Source: a virus (Duplodnaviria; Caudoviricetes). Taken from it: a stretch of DNA of 64,000 nt. The position numbers were made by a program, and so were the translations under genes. Positions 57,297 to 62,586 of this stretch are shown piece after piece. The stretch is from the IMG/VR virus record IMGVR_UViG_3300022602_000026; one strand, 5' to 3'. Numbering within the stretch: position 1 is the stretch's first letter; each line of letters starts with the position of its first letter. The notes under the pieces are model-generated. The model was given only the letters and a program-made list of their open reading frames with translations. It had not been told where the DNA came from and searched no databases.

Positions 57297-57385
57297 GGGG
57301 GCTAATCCACACGGGAGACTGTAAATCTCTTGCCATAATATGTGTGGTGGCTGGCAGTTAGGTTCGATTCCTTTAGTCCCCACCA
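57297..57385 (+). tRNA. tRNA-Tyr(GTA)-like, lacking a D-arm
   Basis: GGGGGCT/AGTCCCC acceptor, GGAGA-CTGTAAA-TCTCT, TTCGATT, CCA; only 10 nt between acceptor and anticodon stems. Confidence 0.75.
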
Positions 57386-57396
57386 TTTGTAGTTGT

Positions 57397-57550
57397 TATT
57401 GATAAGTGTTTGAGATGAACATGGGGTATCGTGGACTGATCATCCGCTATGCGGGCCTAACTGGCGTGGAACAGGTCCTGACATAACCCGCCATACGCTG
57501 TTGCCGGAAACGATCCGACGCATAAATTGGCACTCAAGCACTTTTCAATA
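57397..57550 (+). ncRNA. Candidate ncRNA closed by an 18-bp stem ending flush with tRNA-Arg
   Basis: TATTGATAAGTGTTTGAG / CTCAAGCACTTTTCAATA; internal GGGCCT/AGGTCC and ATGG/CCAT helices. Confidence 0.55.
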
Positions 57551-57625
57551 GTCGCTATAGTATAATGGATAATACGCCGTGCTACGAACGCGGTGATTGT
57601 GGTTCGATTCCATATAGCGGCACCA
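57551..57625 (+). tRNA. tRNA-Arg(ACG)
   Basis: CCGTG-CTACGAA-CGCGG, CCA. Confidence 0.95.
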
Positions 57626-58011: not shown

Positions 58012-58158
58012 AAGTTTGTTAGTTATTAAAAAGGAAGTTAACATGAAAGACACTGCTAAACACTAGTGTCAATCTTGATCCCGTATTGGTCAGGGTTGGC
58101 ACATTAAAGAACTCTTTAATATAGTATTAAGACATTAAAGAAACTTTTAATACACCAA

Positions 58159-58234
58159 CCCTCTGTGGCGCAATTGGTAGCGCAACGGACTCTTAATCCG
58201 CTGGTTGGCAGTTCAAATCTGCCCGGGGGGACCA
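58159..58234 (+). tRNA. tRNA-Lys(CTT)
   Basis: Loop CTCTTAA, CCA. Confidence 0.95.
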
Positions 58235-58237
58235 TAT

Positions 58238-58313
58238 GGGACGTTAGCTCAGTAGGTAGAGCAAGAAACTTTTAATTTCGAGGTCATGTGTTCGAATCAC
58301 ATACGTCCTACCA
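58238..58313 (+). tRNA. tRNA-Lys(TTT)
   Basis: Loop CTTTTAA; its CCA forms the start of the first array stem. Confidence 0.95.
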
Positions 58314-58925
58314 TATAAAAACACATTAAGTAAGTCCCGGGCAAGATTCGTTTAATAGGCATTAGTGTGTTTCTATATGGTAAGTAATGATACAAGAGGG
58401 AGTAATTACCCTTCAAGTATGACCTAGAAGCGAGTGGACGAACGTGACTGTGGGCCACTAAGGTAGTCAACATTACAATCCATATAAAAACACATTCTTG
58501 TGGGTAAGTGACTTGGTTAACGCCGATATCGACCGCCCGTTTGTAGTGTGTTTCTATATGGTAAGGGCAAGGTGTGCTGTTGGTATCTGGCTTAGACCTC
58601 CGGACTGTCACTAGAATCATTACCGCTCTACTGCTTGGTCGGCAGTACCATATAAAAACACATTAGAGTAGCGACTATTGCTGGAGGCGGTAACACGTAA
58701 TTAGTGTGTTTTTATATGGTATATCAGTTTTTAGTAAGTCATACACGGGACTGCTACCTACGGGATAGATATCGAGGCTCGGAATCTCGGATACTAATTA
58801 CAGACTCAATGACGGATGCATACGGCATTGTTGATACGCCATATAAAAACACATTATCTAACCTGTAGTGCGGTCACAGGACATCGTAAGGTGTGGTAGC
58901 CGTGTTAGTGTGTTTCTATATGGTA
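58311..58925 (+). repeat. Array of four inverted-repeat stems with unique loops and unique spacers
   Basis: Left arm CCATATAAAAACACATT at 58311, 58480, 58648, 58839; right arm TAGTGTGTTTYTATATGGTA at 58363, 58544, 58702, 58906. Confidence 0.95.
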
Positions 58926-58997
58926 ATATAGCATAGTGGCTAATGCAGTTGCTTCATACGCAACCTATCGTTGGTTCGAGTCCAACTATTACCACCA
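58922..58997 (+). tRNA. tRNA(CAT), elongator Met or Ile2
   Basis: GTTGC-TTCATAC-GCAAC, G1:C72 paired (not initiator), CCA. Confidence 0.9.
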
Positions 58998-59400: not shown

Positions 59401-59483
59401 TCCACGGGAGCCGCCGGGTGTGGCAGCGGACTGTTAATCCGTGTCGAAAGACTAGCTAGGTTCGAGCCCTAGCCGTGGAGCCA
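59401..59483 (+). tRNA. tRNA-Asn(GTT) with long variable arm
   Basis: GCGGA-CTGTTAA-TCCGT; variable arm GTC-GAAA-GAC; CCA. Confidence 0.9.
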
Positions 59484-59498
59484 ATCATAAATAACTAT

Positions 59499-60104
59499 AT
59501 GTATAATTGTATAGTTTGTGAAAAATCTTTTGTCAGCATTATGTCCTTAACCGGTCATAAAAGAATGCACGGTCAATCTAATGGCAAATCTAAAAAGATA
59601 TTGTGTTCGTGTTTAATTACACGTAAGGTAATGCCGCATCAATATTTAGAAAAATATCAAGACAGTTTAATGGGTTGTAAGCAATGTAAAAAATTGTTTA
59701 AACCAACTGCACAAAGAACTACTTTTTGCTCTCAATCTTGTTCGGCAACATATAACAATACAGTTTACATAAAACGTAAGAAAAAAGAAAAACTGCCAAA
59801 GATTATTAGAGAGAAAAAAGTTTACTCAGAAGCCGAGAAAAAGGCTGCAAATGTTTCAGCAGTACAAGCCTACAGAGCTCGAAAATATAGTGCGACACTA
59901 CCAGATACAAATCGCAAACTTATTAATGAGATTTACAAAATGTGCCCAAAAGGTTATGAAGTAGATCATATTATTGCGTTAAGCGAAGGTGGTCCGCACC
60001 ATCAAGACAATTTACAGTATCTTCCTGCTATAGAAAATAGACGGAAGAACCGAACACAAAATTACGACAAAAGTCTTGCTATCAAATGGCAAGATGTGTT
60101 ATAA
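59499..60104 (+). CDS. C2H2/CxxC zinc-finger HNH endonuclease (homing-type)
   Basis: CIVC..H..MH finger, FCSQSC, EVDHIIALSEGG.HHQDNLQYL; TAAATA 59488-59493. Confidence 0.88.
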   Translation: MYNCIVCEKSFVSIMSLTGHKRMHGQSNGKSKKILCSCLITRKVMPHQYLEKYQDSLMGCKQCKKLFKPTAQRTTFCSQSCSATYNNTVYIKRKKKEKLPKIIREKKVYSEAEKKAANVSAVQAYRARKYSATLPDTNRKLINEIYKMCPKGYEVDHIIALSEGGPHHQDNLQYLPAIENRRKNRTQNYDKSLAIKWQDVL

Positions 60105-60621: not shown

Positions 60622-61692
60622 ATGAAAAGAATAGTTTGGCCATTAAAGATTTATGGTGACAAAGATTTATCGGGCAAAATTTGCACGATCCCTTTTAATA
60701 CTGTAGCAATATCAATTGAAGGTGATGTTCGTATATGTATGTGTACTGATTGGATGCTATCCACAGTTGGCAACATTTATGAAAATTCCTTACAAGATAT
60801 TTTAGTTAATGCAAGATCCACAACAATAAGACAATCTATTGTTGATGGTAATTTTAGATACTGTGACGAAACCAGATGCGGAGTATTGCTTAATTCAGAC
60901 ACAGGATTAATTACAGTAACGCAAGAAGATCAATTATTAAAAAATTTACTTGATCCTGCAAATTTTACAATACCATCTGAGATATGGATAAGTGGTGACA
61001 TGACCTGTAACCTTTCTTGTCCATCTTGTAGAAAAAGCATAATTCGAGAAACAGAAGCACAACAACGACAAAATCAAGAGCTATTAGATAATTTAGTTCA
61101 ACATATTTTTCCTGGCTCCAGCGATAAAGAAATTACCTTGTACATGAGCGCAACTGCTGAAGTATTTGCTAGTTCACTGTTACTGGGTTTGTTGGAAAAA
61201 TTGCCCATTGATCGATACCCTAACATTAGATTAAGTCTACAAACAAACGGGTTATTGGCCGAACGTAGATGGTCTAGGATCCAACATTTAGAAAAGAATA
61301 TACATCGTATCACAGTTACCATAGATAGTTGTACCAAACAAAACTATGAACTATTGAGACGAGGTGGTAAATTTGAAGATATGGAAAGTAGCTTAGAGTT
61401 TTTTTCAAAGAAAAAACGCGAGCTAGGGTTTCAGTATTATATTAGATCAGTAACGCAACAAACAAATTGCAACGAGATCGAACAATTTTATGATTATTGC
61501 AAACAACACGACGCTGATCGAGTTGAATACTGTAAGTTGGCCAATTGGGGAACTTTCACCGAGCAAGAATTTTTAGCACACGATGTGCTTGATAACGCAC
61601 ACCAACAGTACCAATCAACAATTGATACTTTTAATCGACTCAAAGAAAAATACAACGATGTATTTTTTATAGGCTTCGCAAGTATGGCGTAA
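60622..61692 (+). CDS. Radical SAM protein with N-terminal Cys-rich (SPASM/twitch-like) domain
   Basis: CNLSCPSC; CTIPF..GDVRICMC..CDETRC; stop lies inside tRNA-Leu. Confidence 0.88.
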   Translation: MKRIVWPLKIYGDKDLSGKICTIPFNTVAISIEGDVRICMCTDWMLSTVGNIYENSLQDILVNARSTTIRQSIVDGNFRYCDETRCGVLLNSDTGLITVTQEDQLLKNLLDPANFTIPSEIWISGDMTCNLSCPSCRKSIIRETEAQQRQNQELLDNLVQHIFPGSSDKEITLYMSATAEVFASSLLLGLLEKLPIDRYPNIRLSLQTNGLLAERRWSRIQHLEKNIHRITVTIDSCTKQNYELLRRGGKFEDMESSLEFFSKKKRELGFQYYIRSVTQQTNCNEIEQFYDYCKQHDADRVEYCKLANWGTFTEQEFLAHDVLDNAHQQYQSTIDTFNRLKEKYNDVFFIGFASMA

Positions 61693-61884: not shown

Positions 61885-62586
61885 ATGGATTATAAGAAAA
61901 TATACGAAAATTTAATAGATCGTGCTAGAGATCGATGTTTAATAGATGGTGAATATTATGAATCGCACCACATTGTTCCTAGATGTTTAGGTGGTAATGA
62001 TAGTATTGATAATTTAGTAAATCTAACAGCTAGAGAACATTTTATAGCACATTTATGCCTAGTTAAGAATAATCCGGGTAATCATAAACTTGTGAAAGCG
62101 GCCGTTATGATGACTGTTAGTGGCACAGTTCATAATAGAATAGGGAATAGAGTTTATGAATGGTTAAGAAAAAAGCATTCAGTTGCAATGAGTATTTCAC
62201 AATCCGGAAAAGGTAATAGCCAATTTGGATCTGTCTGGGTATTTAACGATATCTTAAAAGAAAATAAAAAAGTTAAAAAATCTGAATTATCTACGTTTAT
62301 TGCCGCCGGGTGGCATGAAGGAAGAGTTTATGATTTTGATAGCGTATATCAAAATTGTGCAGTTTGTGGAAAAGACTTCAGAAACCATTTTAAGAAAAAG
62401 ACTTGCAGTTACACATGTCAAGAAATCTTAAAAGGCAAATTTAAAAGTTTTGAAGGCAAAGAAGAAGAATTAAAAATGCATTATGCAAATACTAAGAGTA
62501 TGAATAAAGCATTAAAGGCAATGGGATATCCTGGAGCAGTTAGCCATTATTATCAATGGGCTAAACGTATCCTAAAGCAAACATAA
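61885..62586 (+). CDS. HNH homing endonuclease
   Basis: YESHHIVPRCLGG..NLVNLTAREHFIAH; TAAATA 61850-61855, SD AGGAG. Confidence 0.92.
   Translation: MDYKKIYENLIDRARDRCLIDGEYYESHHIVPRCLGGNDSIDNLVNLTAREHFIAHLCLVKNNPGNHKLVKAAVMMTVSGTVHNRIGNRVYEWLRKKHSVAMSISQSGKGNSQFGSVWVFNDILKENKKVKKSELSTFIAAGWHEGRVYDFDSVYQNCAVCGKDFRNHFKKKTCSYTCQEILKGKFKSFEGKEEELKMHYANTKSMNKALKAMGYPGAVSHYYQWAKRILKQT

What the first reader, a model, noticed from the sequence alone, without database searches (positions are those of the whole stretch)
58311..58925. Array of four conserved stems with unique cargo, docked between two tRNAs
Seen: the left arm CCATATAAAAACACATT and right arm TAGTGTGTTTYTATATGGTA alternate four times, forming 16-20 bp stems with the same A-C mismatch in copies 1, 2 and 4. 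Loops are unique (35, 47, 37, 50 nt) and spacers are unique (97, 84, 117 nt). The first stem begins on the CCA of tRNA-Lys(TTT) and the last ends on the 5' GGTA of tRNA(CAT). Each spacer therefore starts with GGTA and ends in CCA like a tRNA slot, and each folds on itself (GTAATG/CATTAC; AGGGC/GCTCT; TATCAG/TTGATA). Loop 4 has two hairpins, one with a GTAA tetraloop. Inference: a cassette array of small RNAs released by repeated processing stems (RNase III-like or a phage protein site), or an attC/REPIN-like ssDNA hairpin array that accumulates cassettes at a tRNA end. It matches neither CRISPR nor any element I can name.
Basis: partly seen in the sequence, partly recalled or inferred. Interest (0 to 1): 0.9.

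Follow-up and report, generated by a model that had tools for sequence, protein, structure and literature searches.

The report
Stem-closed small RNA cassettes in phage tRNA array
Between two tRNA genes of a large freshwater phage lie seven small structured RNA modules, four of them closed by the same 20-bp stem that starts exactly on a tRNA's CCA end. This apparently undescribed module family occurs in at least 180 uncultured phage contigs, and its parts are swapped between phages like cassettes.

Summary
The four stems belong to a widespread family. The same arms (CCATATAAAAACACATT / AGTGTGTTTYTATATGG) occur in more than 120 IMG/VR phage contigs. They lie only inside tRNA arrays, always in tRNA sense, with 1-4 copies per genome. 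They start on the CCA of tRNA-Lys(UUU) (84 of 170 hairpins) or tRNA-Gln(UUG) (22 of 170). Variant arms change by compensatory substitutions, so the helix is selected. Stem position 8 is usually a mismatch (A.C) and position 16 usually U.G. The loops are not filler. They form families with covarying helices and fold better in sense than antisense. The same loop recurs behind other tRNAs and with unrelated arms. The three spacers are also conserved RNAs, and X1 is a covarying three-way junction. Loops and spacers occur in different orders in relatives. My best reading is a co-transcribed, tRNA-punctuated array of stem-closed small RNAs. The identical arms serve as a double-stranded processing or stability stem and as homology for cassette exchange. 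The enzyme and the function of the cargo are not shown. The attC, REPIN, CRISPR, promoter and terminator readings failed their tests. Earlier notes of this scan report similar CCA-abutting spacer hairpins in other phage lineages. I found no Rfam family or paper that describes it.

The parts
58238..58313 (+). tRNA-Lys(UUU). Its 3' CCA (58311-58313) is the first three bases of hairpin 1.
   Evidence: ARAGORN; Rfam tRNA 67.3 bits
58311..58382 (+). Hairpin HP1. Left arm 58311-58327, apical cargo l1 58328-58362, right arm 58363-58382. A.C at stem position 8.
   Evidence: Fold -21.5 kcal/mol, z = -4.1. Cargo l1 is found again directly behind tRNA-Lys(UUU) in L188.
58379..58482 (+). Module X1 (GG...CCA). 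A three-way-junction RNA with closing stem GUAAUG/CAUUAC, a variable hairpin, and a conserved domain CCUAGAAGCG-stem-AAGG.
   Evidence: Alignment A3 of 5 homologues has 5 pairs with compensatory changes. The homologues are flanked by other loops in L097, L044, L039, L101 and L188. Its conserved domain is also the apical cargo of hairpins in L024 and L126.
58480..58563 (+). Hairpin HP2. Left arm 58480-58496, cargo l2 58497-58543, right arm 58544-58563. A.C mismatch.
   Evidence: Fold -28.9 kcal/mol, z = -3.9. No exact 22-mer match of l2 in IMG/VR.
58562..58650 (+). Module X2 (GG...ACCA). Stem AGGGC/GCUCU, then a terminal hairpin ACUGC-UUGGUCG-GCAGU followed by ACCA.
   Evidence: 95-99% identical copies in L176 and L139, flanked there by other loops. 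A relative's copy lies in lake metatranscriptome contigs. Homologues are too similar to show covariation.
58648..58721 (+). Hairpin HP3. Left arm 58648-58664, cargo l3 58665-58701, right arm 58702-58721. Perfect A-U at position 8.
   Evidence: Fold -30.5 kcal/mol, z = -7.0. Cargo l3 is 97% identical in L174, directly before the same tRNA-Met, with arms changed on both sides (A-U to G-C). It is also in L188.
58720..58841 (+). Module X3 (GG...CGCCA). Closing stem UAUCAG/UUGAUA.
   Evidence: 99% identical copies in L159 and L166, flanked by other loops and followed by tRNA-His instead of tRNA-Met.
58839..58925 (+). Hairpin HP4. Left arm 58839-58855, cargo l4 58856-58905 (two helices, one GUAA-capped), right arm 58906-58925. 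A.C mismatch.
   Evidence: Fold -30.7 kcal/mol, z = -3.6. Cargo l4 recurs directly behind tRNA-Lys(UUU) in L189 with arms CCATATGCAAACACATT/AGTGTGTTTACATATGG. It recurs behind tRNA-Phe in L190 and L191 with unrelated arms.
58922..58997 (+). tRNA-Met(CAU). Its first bases GGUA are the end of HP4's right arm. The RNase P site would be U|GG.
   Evidence: ARAGORN; Rfam 68.3 bits. tRNA-Met(CAU) is the downstream neighbour of 38 of 170 hairpins.
58035..58234 (+). Context, the head of the Lys unit. SD, mini-ORF MKDTAKH* (58044-58067), a stem overlapping the stop codon, two AT hairpins, then tRNA-Lys(CUU) 58159-58234.
   Evidence: The same M-K-x-x-x-K-x-stop leader precedes 46 of 48 tRNA-Lys(CUU) genes in the related loci.

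Best explanation
The 615 bases are not a DNA repeat element. They are a block of seven small structured RNAs inside the phage's polycistronic tRNA transcript.

Four modules are CCA-anchored hairpin RNAs. Each has a nearly invariant AU-rich closing stem of 17-20 bp: 5'-CCAUAUAAAAACACAUU ... AGUGUGUUUYUAUAUGG-3'. The stem carries a mismatch at position 8 and a U.G at position 16. Each stem is capped by a different 35-50 nt structured apical domain, the cargo. The other three modules (X1-X3) are stem-closed RNAs that occupy tRNA slots, running from GG to CCA.

Inferred mechanism. The array is transcribed together with the tRNAs. The ends of each hairpin RNA are set by its neighbours, in the manner of tRNA punctuation. 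RNase P cuts at U|GG on the 3' side. Maturation of the upstream CCA end sets the 5' side. The 20-bp stem insulates the folding of the cargo and protects it. It has the length of an RNase III substrate, so it may also be cut to free the tRNA 3' end and the apical RNA.

The arms are identical and alternate in orientation, so every module is bracketed by 17-20 bp of homology. Ordinary homologous recombination between co-infecting phages can then exchange, delete or add loops and spacers. That explains the cassette-like arrays.

Shown: the family, its position and strand, selection on the helix, structured and conserved cargo, and shuffling of modules. Inferred: co-transcription, the nucleases involved, recombination at the arms, and what the cargo RNAs do.
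For: Family and position. I found 170 distinct hairpins in 181 loci that together hold 2835 tRNAs. All are in tRNA sense. The upstream neighbour is tRNA-Lys(UUU) in 84 cases, tRNA-Gln(UUG) in 22 and none in 47. tRNA-Met is downstream in 38.

Enrichment. 229 of 2727 CCA-ending tRNAs carry a hairpin of 15 bp or more that starts on the CCA, against 6 in shuffled controls. The rate is 76% for Lys(UUU), 27% for Gln(UUG), 20% for Glu(UUC) and 10% or less for every other type.

Selection on the helix. In 52 diverse hairpins, 94.6% of cells pair in register against 26-59% when slid. 15 of 17 pairs show double changes. The covariation score is 0.40 against 0.16 +/- 0.01 in shuffles (0 of 500 reach it). 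Unrelated arm families keep the same geometry, CCA paired to UGG.

RNA sense. Loops fold more stably in sense than antisense, 60 against 16, p = 4e-7. Outside position 8, non-Watson-Crick pairs are mostly G.U. No cargo is inverted.

Cargo is functional. Loop families have covarying helices and an invariant single-stranded motif. The same cargo occurs with different arms and behind different tRNAs. X1 covaries.

Shuffling. X1, X2, X3 and several loops are flanked by different partners, and in different order, in L176, L139, L159, L174, L097, L044, L133, L188 and L189. In L074 the spacer between two hairpins is a true tRNA-Lys.

Other points. No promoter or terminator lies inside the array. Lake metatranscriptome contigs span hairpin-X2-hairpin-tRNA-Met of a relative. 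The arms are identical in genomes whose terminases are 34-64% identical.
Against: No RNA ends, nuclease or stable product has been seen. The metatranscriptome contigs have low depth, show no strand, and could be DNA carry-over.

The main arm family is far more sequence-conserved than pairing alone requires. That points to a sequence-specific reader, which I did not find, or to recent horizontal spread.

On the sense strand the commonest variant has an A.C mismatch, which would be a G.U on the antisense strand. The two dominant non-Watson-Crick positions therefore do not choose a strand.

The hairpins in the covariation set were found by a hairpin finder, so the share of paired cells is partly by construction. 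Inverted repeats read by one protein would covary as well.

X2 and X3 do not fold better than shuffles, and their homologues are too close to test.

34 of 139 tRNA-Lys(UUU) genes in the loci lack the hairpin, so it is not needed for tRNA maturation. The preference for Lys, Gln and Glu tRNAs is unexplained.
Confidence: 0.55

Rival explanations
1. The constant stem is a protein-binding scaffold and the apical domains are effectors or decoys. One host or phage protein would read the stem, with its fixed sequence and its position-8 mismatch. Y RNAs bind Ro60 through a conserved bulged stem in this way, and guide RNAs share a scaffold. The system may be tied to the host attack on tRNA-Lys, Gln and Glu.
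For: The arm sequence is nearly invariant across phages with 34-64% identical terminases. Most of the 172 unique arm pairs share the consensus pair at almost every position. Position 8 is kept as a mismatch in several forms: A.C, U.U, C.A, A.A. The cargo is hypervariable but structured, with 88 families in 170 hairpins. The hairpin is enriched behind the three tRNAs that carry xm5s2U34, which are targets of anticodon nucleases by established knowledge. A Lys-codon leader ORF stands at the head of the unit.
Against: No partner was found. TROVE/Ro60 and DUF2828 are absent from complete hairpin-bearing genomes. No gene family accompanies the hairpin in more than 38 of 181 loci. The same cargo works with unrelated arms, so the main arm sequence is not obligatory. 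Loops show no special complementarity to their own tRNA.
Confidence: 0.17
2. The hairpins are only spacer or processing stems for tRNA maturation or precursor stability. In this reading the loops and spacers are tolerated filler or decayed tRNA genes.
For: The stem sits flush between a CCA end and the next +1 G. It has the length of an RNase III substrate. Some loops contain T-arm-like pieces such as GGTTCGAATCC. X2 and X3 are not thermodynamically special.
Against: Loop families are conserved at 90-100% across different contexts and arms, with compensatory changes and invariant single-stranded motifs. X1 covaries. Most tRNAs in the same arrays are 2-10 nt apart without any hairpin. A quarter of the tRNA-Lys(UUU) genes lack one.
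Confidence: 0.13
3. It is a DNA-level element. It could be a folded single-strand recombination site (attC-like), a REPIN- or MITE-like mobile palindrome, or the target of the HNH endonucleases of the tRNA region. Cassettes would accumulate by site-specific cutting and joining.
For: The inverted repeats are identical and bracket unrelated inserts. Cassettes are reordered among relatives. A junction CCATATATGG without a hairpin exists in L039. HNH genes lie in the tRNA island. Inverted repeats read by one protein would also covary.
Against: Complete hairpin-bearing genomes have no tyrosine recombinase or Y1 transposase. There are only 1-3 copies per genome, in one region. There is no target-site duplication: the outer bases covary as an inverted repeat, CCATAG...CTATGG. 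Orientation is fixed relative to the tRNAs, and the register matches the RNA ends exactly. No cargo is inverted. Folding is biased to the sense strand. HNH genes are near at most 18 of 181 loci.
Confidence: 0.1
4. It is a transcription signal. The arm contains TATAAAAA, close to the T4-type late promoter TATAAATA, or the long stem is a terminator without a U tail.
For: The similarity of TATAAAAA to TATAAATA. TATAAATA sits 25-38 nt before three large ORFs of this phage.
Against: The arm motif occurs nowhere else in the 64 kb, and never before an ORF. In a palindrome it would give convergent promoters. No U tract follows the stem and no promoter or terminator call lies inside the array. Four terminators in series would silence X1-X3 and tRNA-Met. 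RNA-library contigs run through two hairpins.
Confidence: 0.05

Closest known systems
Phage T4 stable RNAs species 1 and 2 (rnaC, rnaD) in the T4 tRNA gene cluster
   Same: They are small non-tRNA RNAs encoded among phage tRNA genes, co-transcribed with them and cut out of the precursor. Their function is still unknown (established knowledge, not tested here).
   Different: There is no shared sequence and no Rfam hit. The T4 RNAs have no constant 20-bp closing stem anchored on a CCA, no family of exchangeable apical domains, and no array.
RNase III processing stems: T7 early-mRNA R sites, leader/trailer stems of rRNA operons, and 23S rRNA intervening sequences
   Same: These are repeated stems of about 20 bp, often with an internal mismatch, inside a polycistronic transcript. 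The 23S intervening sequences are sporadic, variable hairpin inserts with conserved bases.
   Different: Cleavage was not tested here. These stems are flush with tRNA ends, carry conserved structured cargo, and are shared by distant phages. The complete relatives encode no RNase III.
tRNA punctuation and tRNA-linked small RNAs: mitochondrial transcripts, and MHV68 TMERs (a tRNA-like unit followed by pre-miRNA hairpins)
   Same: A hairpin RNA lies directly behind a tRNA, and its ends would be made by the tRNA-processing enzymes.
   Different: Those systems are eukaryotic or organellar and use tRNase Z and Dicer logic. Here the CCA is encoded and base-paired into the stem, and no small-RNA pathway is known for the host.
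Y RNAs and bacterial YrlA with Ro60/Rsr
   Same: A conserved closing stem with a fixed irregularity is joined to a variable or tRNA-like upper domain. They are often encoded near tRNAs in phages.
   Different: There is no Rfam Y RNA or YrlA hit. There is no TROVE protein in three complete relatives. The stem sequence is unrelated.
PeSL cassettes of T4-type phages (promoter-early stem-loops that mediate modular shuffling; Arbiol et al. 2010, from memory)
   Same: A short conserved motif is repeated between exchangeable modules, and it is thought to act both as a regulatory signal and as recombination homology.
   Different: PeSLs carry a sigma-70 promoter and flank protein genes. There is no promoter here, the modules are RNAs, and the repeats alternate in orientation.
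Integron attC arrays, REPINs and CRISPR arrays
   Same: Repeated palindromic or conserved units separate unrelated inserts.
   Different: There is no integrase, RAYT or cas context. The repeats are inverted and alternating, not direct. Copy number is low, the element is tied to the RNA sense strand, and its register follows tRNA ends.

Membership tests
CRISPR array | Direct repeats of 23-50 nt separated by spacers of similar length | tested here: not met
   The arms alternate as inverted copies. Intervals alternate 35-50 and 84-117 nt.
Integron attC site / cassette array | A cognate tyrosine recombinase (IntI) and R''/L''-L'/R' boxes (RYYYAAC / GTTRRRY) | tested here: not met
   PF00589 is absent from 3 complete and 1 partial hairpin-bearing genomes, while the control rang in 14 of 14 genomes. 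The arms lack the core-site consensus.
REP/REPIN with RAYT | A Y1 (HUH) transposase and many dispersed copies per genome | tested here: not met
   PF01797 is absent. There are 1-3 hairpins per complete genome, in one region.
MITE / TIR transposon | Target-site duplication as a direct repeat, homologous internal sequence, and dispersed copies | tested here: not met
   The outer bases covary as an inverted repeat, e.g. CCATAG...CTATGG. There are 88 unrelated interiors. Copies occur only in tRNA arrays.
Any Rfam 15 family (tRNA, Y RNA/YrlA, STnc100, ribozymes, riboswitches) | A covariance-model match | tested here: not met
   cmscan with permissive filters at E up to 1 gives no hit inside 58314-58921.
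RNase III processing site | Cleavage of the roughly 20-bp helix by RNase III, leaving 2-nt 3' overhangs | not testable with these tools
   The helix length (17-22 bp) fits. There are no end-mapped reads. The phage relatives encode no RNase III.
RNase P / tRNA-punctuated precursor | Co-transcription with tRNAs and cleavage at the +1 of the downstream tRNA | tested here: inconclusive
   The geometry fits: the stem ends at U|GG of tRNA-Met, no promoter or terminator lies inside, and RNA-library contigs span hairpin-X2-hairpin-tRNA-Met of a relative. Contigs show neither ends nor strand.
Y RNA / YrlA-Ro60 system | A TROVE-domain protein in the genome and a Ro-binding stem | tested here: not met
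   PF05731 is absent from G002, G003 and G005, while the control rang in Deinococcus and Bacteroides.
Structured RNA helix under selection (generic) | Compensatory base changes that keep the pairs | tested here: met
   15 of 17 stem pairs have double changes. The covariation score is 0.40, against 0.16 in shuffles and 0.14 or less when slid. Loop and X1 helices also covary.

The most novel reading that the evidence does not exclude
This would be a phage small-RNA cassette system. A constant stem, anchored on the CCA of the tRNAs that host anticodon nucleases attack (Lys UUU, Gln UUG, Glu UUC), would be read by one common factor. It would present a large, fast-turning repertoire of apical RNA domains that act as decoys, inhibitors or guides in phage-host or phage-phage conflict. 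The alternating identical arms would be the exchange mechanism. Functionally it would be an RNA counterpart of an integron, coupled to a Lys-codon leader that senses tRNA-Lys supply.
Probability: 0.15. Interest if true: 0.92.

Novelty: new variant of a known kind. Interest (0 to 1): 0.74.

Why it matters
Phage tRNA arrays are now seen as counter-defence tools, but their non-tRNA content is almost unexplored. Here a single 17-20 nt stem marks a family of at least 88 different structured small-RNA domains in uncultured freshwater phages. These range from T4-sized to 360-kb genomes.

The stem is a simple handle for cataloguing these RNAs. It also gives a natural example of small RNAs expressed by tRNA punctuation in bacteria, and evidence that RNA modules are exchanged like cassettes.

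The link to tRNA-Lys(UUU), Gln(UUG) and Glu(UUC), together with the conserved Lys-codon leader ORF at the head of the unit, makes a connection to anticodon-nuclease defences testable.

Tried and rejected
Database and literature searches.
- Rfam, permissive scan: nothing in the array.
- INPHARED phages by blastn: only the tRNA-Lys part matches, so no cultured phage carries these arms.
- Full-text search for the arm sequences and for related topics: nothing relevant. PasD/STnc100 (PMC13192938) are Hfq-associated sRNAs of lambdoid prophages, and no STnc100 hit occurs here.
- Prokaryote genomes: 2 hits in about 185,000 species. One is a phage-like 1.5-kb tRNA-array contig binned in a Ca. Planktophila MAG, which is no proof of host. 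The other is a chance terminator-like palindrome.

Candidate partner proteins.
- TROVE/Ro60, RNase III, DUF2828/DUF7788, tyrosine recombinase and Y1 transposase are all absent from complete hairpin-bearing genomes.
- DUF2828 lies near 18 of 181 loci only, and is absent from the window. PDB has no sequence relative.
- Neighbouring gene families are ordinary T4-like genes (RNase H, dCMP deaminase, Hsp20, phosphoesterase, HNH), none in more than 38 of 181 loci.

Pairing and orientation tests.
- Loop-to-own-tRNA complementarity is no better than to other tRNAs (p = 0.74).
- Complementarity of the window's loops or spacers to the rest of the window or to the loci: only homologous modules were found.
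- Inverted cargo: the single reverse-complement pair is explained by my ambiguous orientation of one palindromic-armed hairpin without a tRNA neighbour.

Other.
- Late-promoter reading of TATAAAAA: rejected.
- Metatranscriptome contigs cover only parts of the stretch. The uncovered parts mean nothing.
- The window's own genome is not held, so copies elsewhere in it could not be counted.
- I did not send a dot-bracket string to the count of structure pairs. I computed the same measures in a script on alignment A4 instead.
Full report
1. OBSERVATION

- The 17-nt left arm CCATATAAAAACACATT occurs at 58311, 58480, 58648 and 58839.
- Its imperfect complement occurs at 58364, 58545, 58703 and 58907. 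That makes 8 matches against 0.77 expected, with none elsewhere in the 64 kb.
- Loops are 35/47/37/50 nt and spacers 97/84/117 nt.
- Copies 1, 2 and 4 share an A.C mismatch. Copy 3 has A-U.
- ARAGORN places tRNA-Lys(UUU) at 58238-58313 and tRNA-Met(CAU) at 58922-58997. The first stem therefore begins on the CCA and the last ends on GGUA.
- The window holds 25 tRNA genes between 56278 and 63264.
- Each hairpin folds with z between -3.6 and -7.0. The three spacers do not fold better than shuffles as whole molecules.
- Rfam with permissive filters gives nothing inside the array.

2. THE STEM IS A WIDESPREAD FAMILY

The 181 loci fetched contain 2835 tRNA genes and 170 distinct hairpins of this type.
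- Orientation: all lie in the same sense as the tRNAs. The A.C form is never seen with the tRNAs on the other strand.
- Upstream neighbour: tRNA-Lys(UUU) in 84 cases, tRNA-Gln(UUG) in 22, other tRNAs in 17, none in 47.
- Downstream neighbour: tRNA-Met(CAU) in 38.
- An anchored search behind every CCA-ending tRNA found a hairpin of 15 bp or more starting on the CCA in 229 of 2727 cases. Shuffled downstream sequence gave 6.
- By tRNA type the rate is 76% for Lys(UUU), 27% for Gln(UUG), 20% for Glu(UUC) and at most 10% for any other. The loci were fetched through the hairpin, so the absolute rates are inflated. The ranking is not affected.
- Complete relatives carry 1-3 hairpins, all in one region. 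The window's four are the most I saw.
- The phages are diverse. The window's terminase is 53% identical to that of Pseudomonas phage PA5oct. It is 64, 58 and 34% identical to those of three complete hairpin-bearing genomes of 352, 365 and 170 kb. The arms are identical in all of them.
- No cultured phage in INPHARED has the arms.
- Among about 185,000 prokaryote genomes there are two hits. One is a phage-like tRNA-array contig and one is a chance palindrome.
- Sequencing runs that hold parts of the stretch are lake, pond and other freshwater metagenomes.

3. THE HELIX IS SELECTED, AND ON THE RNA SENSE STRAND
- Variant arms differ by paired substitutions. Examples are CCATATTGAAAC/GTTTCAATATGG, CCATAGATAAAC/GTTTTTCTATGG and CCATATAAGAAC/GTTCCTATATGG.
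- In an alignment of 52 diverse hairpins (A4), 94.6% of cells pair in register, against 26-59% when the partner is slid by 1-3 columns.
- In the same alignment, 15 of 17 pairs show changes on both sides. The covariation score is 0.40, against 0.16 +/- 0.01 in 500 shuffles (none reach it) and at most 0.14 when slid.
- Caveat: the set was collected with a hairpin finder.
- Stem position 8 is special. It is A.C in most, otherwise U.U, C.A, A.A or a Watson-Crick pair. Position 16 is mostly U.G.
- Unrelated arm families keep the same geometry, with CCA paired to UGG and the stem ending at the next module. Examples are CCAAACAGAAATGCA in L101, ACCATTTGTTTTGCTGACG behind tRNA-Glu in L024 and others, and an 18-bp stem ending at the +1 of tRNA-Arg in this window.
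- Loops fold more stably in sense than in antisense, 60 against 16 of 78 representatives, p = 4e-7.
- No cargo occurs inverted.

4. LOOPS AND SPACERS ARE CARGO, NOT FILLER
- The 170 hairpins carry 129 different interiors in 88 families.
- Families are conserved across different flanks. One is identical in five loci that have different neighbours.
- Two families that I aligned have helices with compensatory changes. One keeps an invariant 12-nt single-stranded motif, AGUCUUGCAAGC.
- The same cargo occurs with different arms.
- The window's l4 lies directly behind tRNA-Lys(UUU) in L189, with arms changed on both sides. It lies behind tRNA-Phe in L190 and L191 with unrelated arms.
- l1 is behind tRNA-Lys in L188. 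l3 is directly before the same tRNA-Met in L174.
- Spacer X1 is a three-way junction with five covarying pairs in five homologues. Its conserved domain is itself the apical cargo of hairpins in L024 and L126.
- X2 and X3 have only near-identical homologues.

5. CASSETTE BEHAVIOUR

Module order differs among relatives.
- Window: Lys-[l1]-X1-[l2]-X2-[l3]-X3-[l4]-Met.
- L176: Lys-[u]-u-[f4]-X2-[f5]-Met.
- L159: [f20]-f21-[f22]-X3-[f4]-His.
- L174: Thr-[u]-f37-[l3]-Met.
- L097: [f53]-X1-[f54].
- L044: [f54]-X1-[u].
- L055: Lys-[f4]-Met.
- In L074 the spacer between two hairpins is a true tRNA-Lys.
- In L039 two X modules meet at CCATATATGG, a collapsed hairpin.

Loops, spacers and tRNAs therefore assort independently between constant arms. 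Every module is bracketed by 17-20 bp of identical sequence, so homologous recombination is enough to explain this. That step is inference. Complete relatives have no integrase or Y1 transposase.

6. MECHANISM

No sigma-70 promoter or intrinsic terminator is called inside the array. The T4-type late motif TATAAATA precedes three large ORFs, but the arms' TATAAAAA never precedes one. Lake metatranscriptome contigs from two studies contain hairpin-X2-hairpin-tRNA-Met of an L139-like relative. This is a weak hint of read-through transcription.

I therefore read the array as part of the tRNA precursor.
- The 3' end of each hairpin is the RNase P site of the next module (U|GG).
- Its 5' end is the matured CCA of the previous module.
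- The stem has the length of an RNase III substrate and would protect and insulate the cargo.
- Which nuclease acts, whether the hairpin RNAs accumulate, and what the cargo does are not shown.
- The near invariance of the main arm suggests a sequence-specific reader. I found none. TROVE, RNase III and DUF2828 are absent, and no gene family accompanies the hairpin.

7. COMPARISON WITH WHAT IS KNOWN
- The closest known things are the T4 stable RNAs C and D, RNase III processing stems and rRNA intervening sequences, tRNA-linked hairpin RNAs (TMERs), Y RNAs and PeSL cassettes. The array is a member of none of them.
- CRISPR, attC, REPIN, MITE, Y RNA and all Rfam families fail defining features that I tested.
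- Earlier notes of this scan describe similar 20-bp spacer hairpins abutting CCA ends in N4-like and P1-like coliphages, and other stem-closed RNAs in this same tRNA island. I confirmed one of the latter, at 57396-57551.
- I found no paper that describes this family.

8. VERDICT
The ssDNA half is not supported.
- The finding is a new variant of a known kind: small RNAs embedded in phage tRNA operons. Three features are unusual. A constant CCA-anchored stem is shared by distant phages. The structured cargo is exchangeable. The hairpin is strongly tied to tRNA-Lys(UUU), Gln(UUG) and Glu(UUC).

Noticed in passing
window 58035-58165: A Shine-Dalgarno site and a 7-codon ORF (MKDTAKH*, 58044-58067) lie upstream of tRNA-Lys(CUU). 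A stem (58066-58102) overlaps the stop codon. Its 3' arm AGGGTTGG can instead pair with CCAACCCT, which is the leader plus the first bases of the tRNA. In the related loci, 46 of 48 tRNA-Lys(CUU) genes with free upstream space carry the same M-K-x-x-(x)-K-x-stop leader. Lys makes up 31% of its residues, against 0-10% in chance mini-ORFs before other tRNAs. This may be a ribosome-sensed attenuator for phage tRNA-Lys.
   Followed up: partly
window 57396-57551: A stem-closed RNA of about 155 nt has an 18-bp closing helix (UUAUUGAUAAGUGUUUGAG / CUCAAGCACUUUUCAAUAG). Its 3' arm ends one base before tRNA-Arg(ACG). z = -2.3. The geometry is the same as the hairpins but the arms differ.
   Followed up: partly
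window 57297-57381: A weak tRNA-Sec-like Rfam hit (22.5 bits, E = 0.78) lies between tRNA-Glu and tRNA-Arg. ARAGORN does not call it.
   Followed up: no
window 59475-60104, 60622-61692, 61885-62586: Three protein genes lie inside the tRNA island. Two are HNH endonucleases, one of them with a C2H2 zinc finger. The third is a radical SAM/SPASM protein of 356 aa.
   Followed up: no
L024:100-250, and tRNA-Glu(UUC) in L079, L080, L128, L131, L177: A second conserved CCA-anchored hairpin family has arms ACCATTTGTTTTGCTGACG / CGTCAGCAAAACAAATGGT and an interior of about 90 nt. It follows tRNA-Glu(UUC) specifically.
   Followed up: partly
L039:60-110: Two X-type modules are joined by CCATATATGG. The hairpin interior is missing exactly between the outer ATAT repeats. 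This is either a collapsed or an empty site.
   Followed up: no
L186 (CAZQNP010000058.1): A 1.5-kb contig with 9 tRNAs, the Lys leader ORF and the hairpin is binned in a Candidatus Planktophila MAG. It is probably phage DNA in the bin, and at most a hint of the host.
   Followed up: no
window 20759, 27049, 29511: TATAAATA, the T4-type late-promoter motif, lies 25-38 nt upstream of three large ORFs.
   Followed up: no
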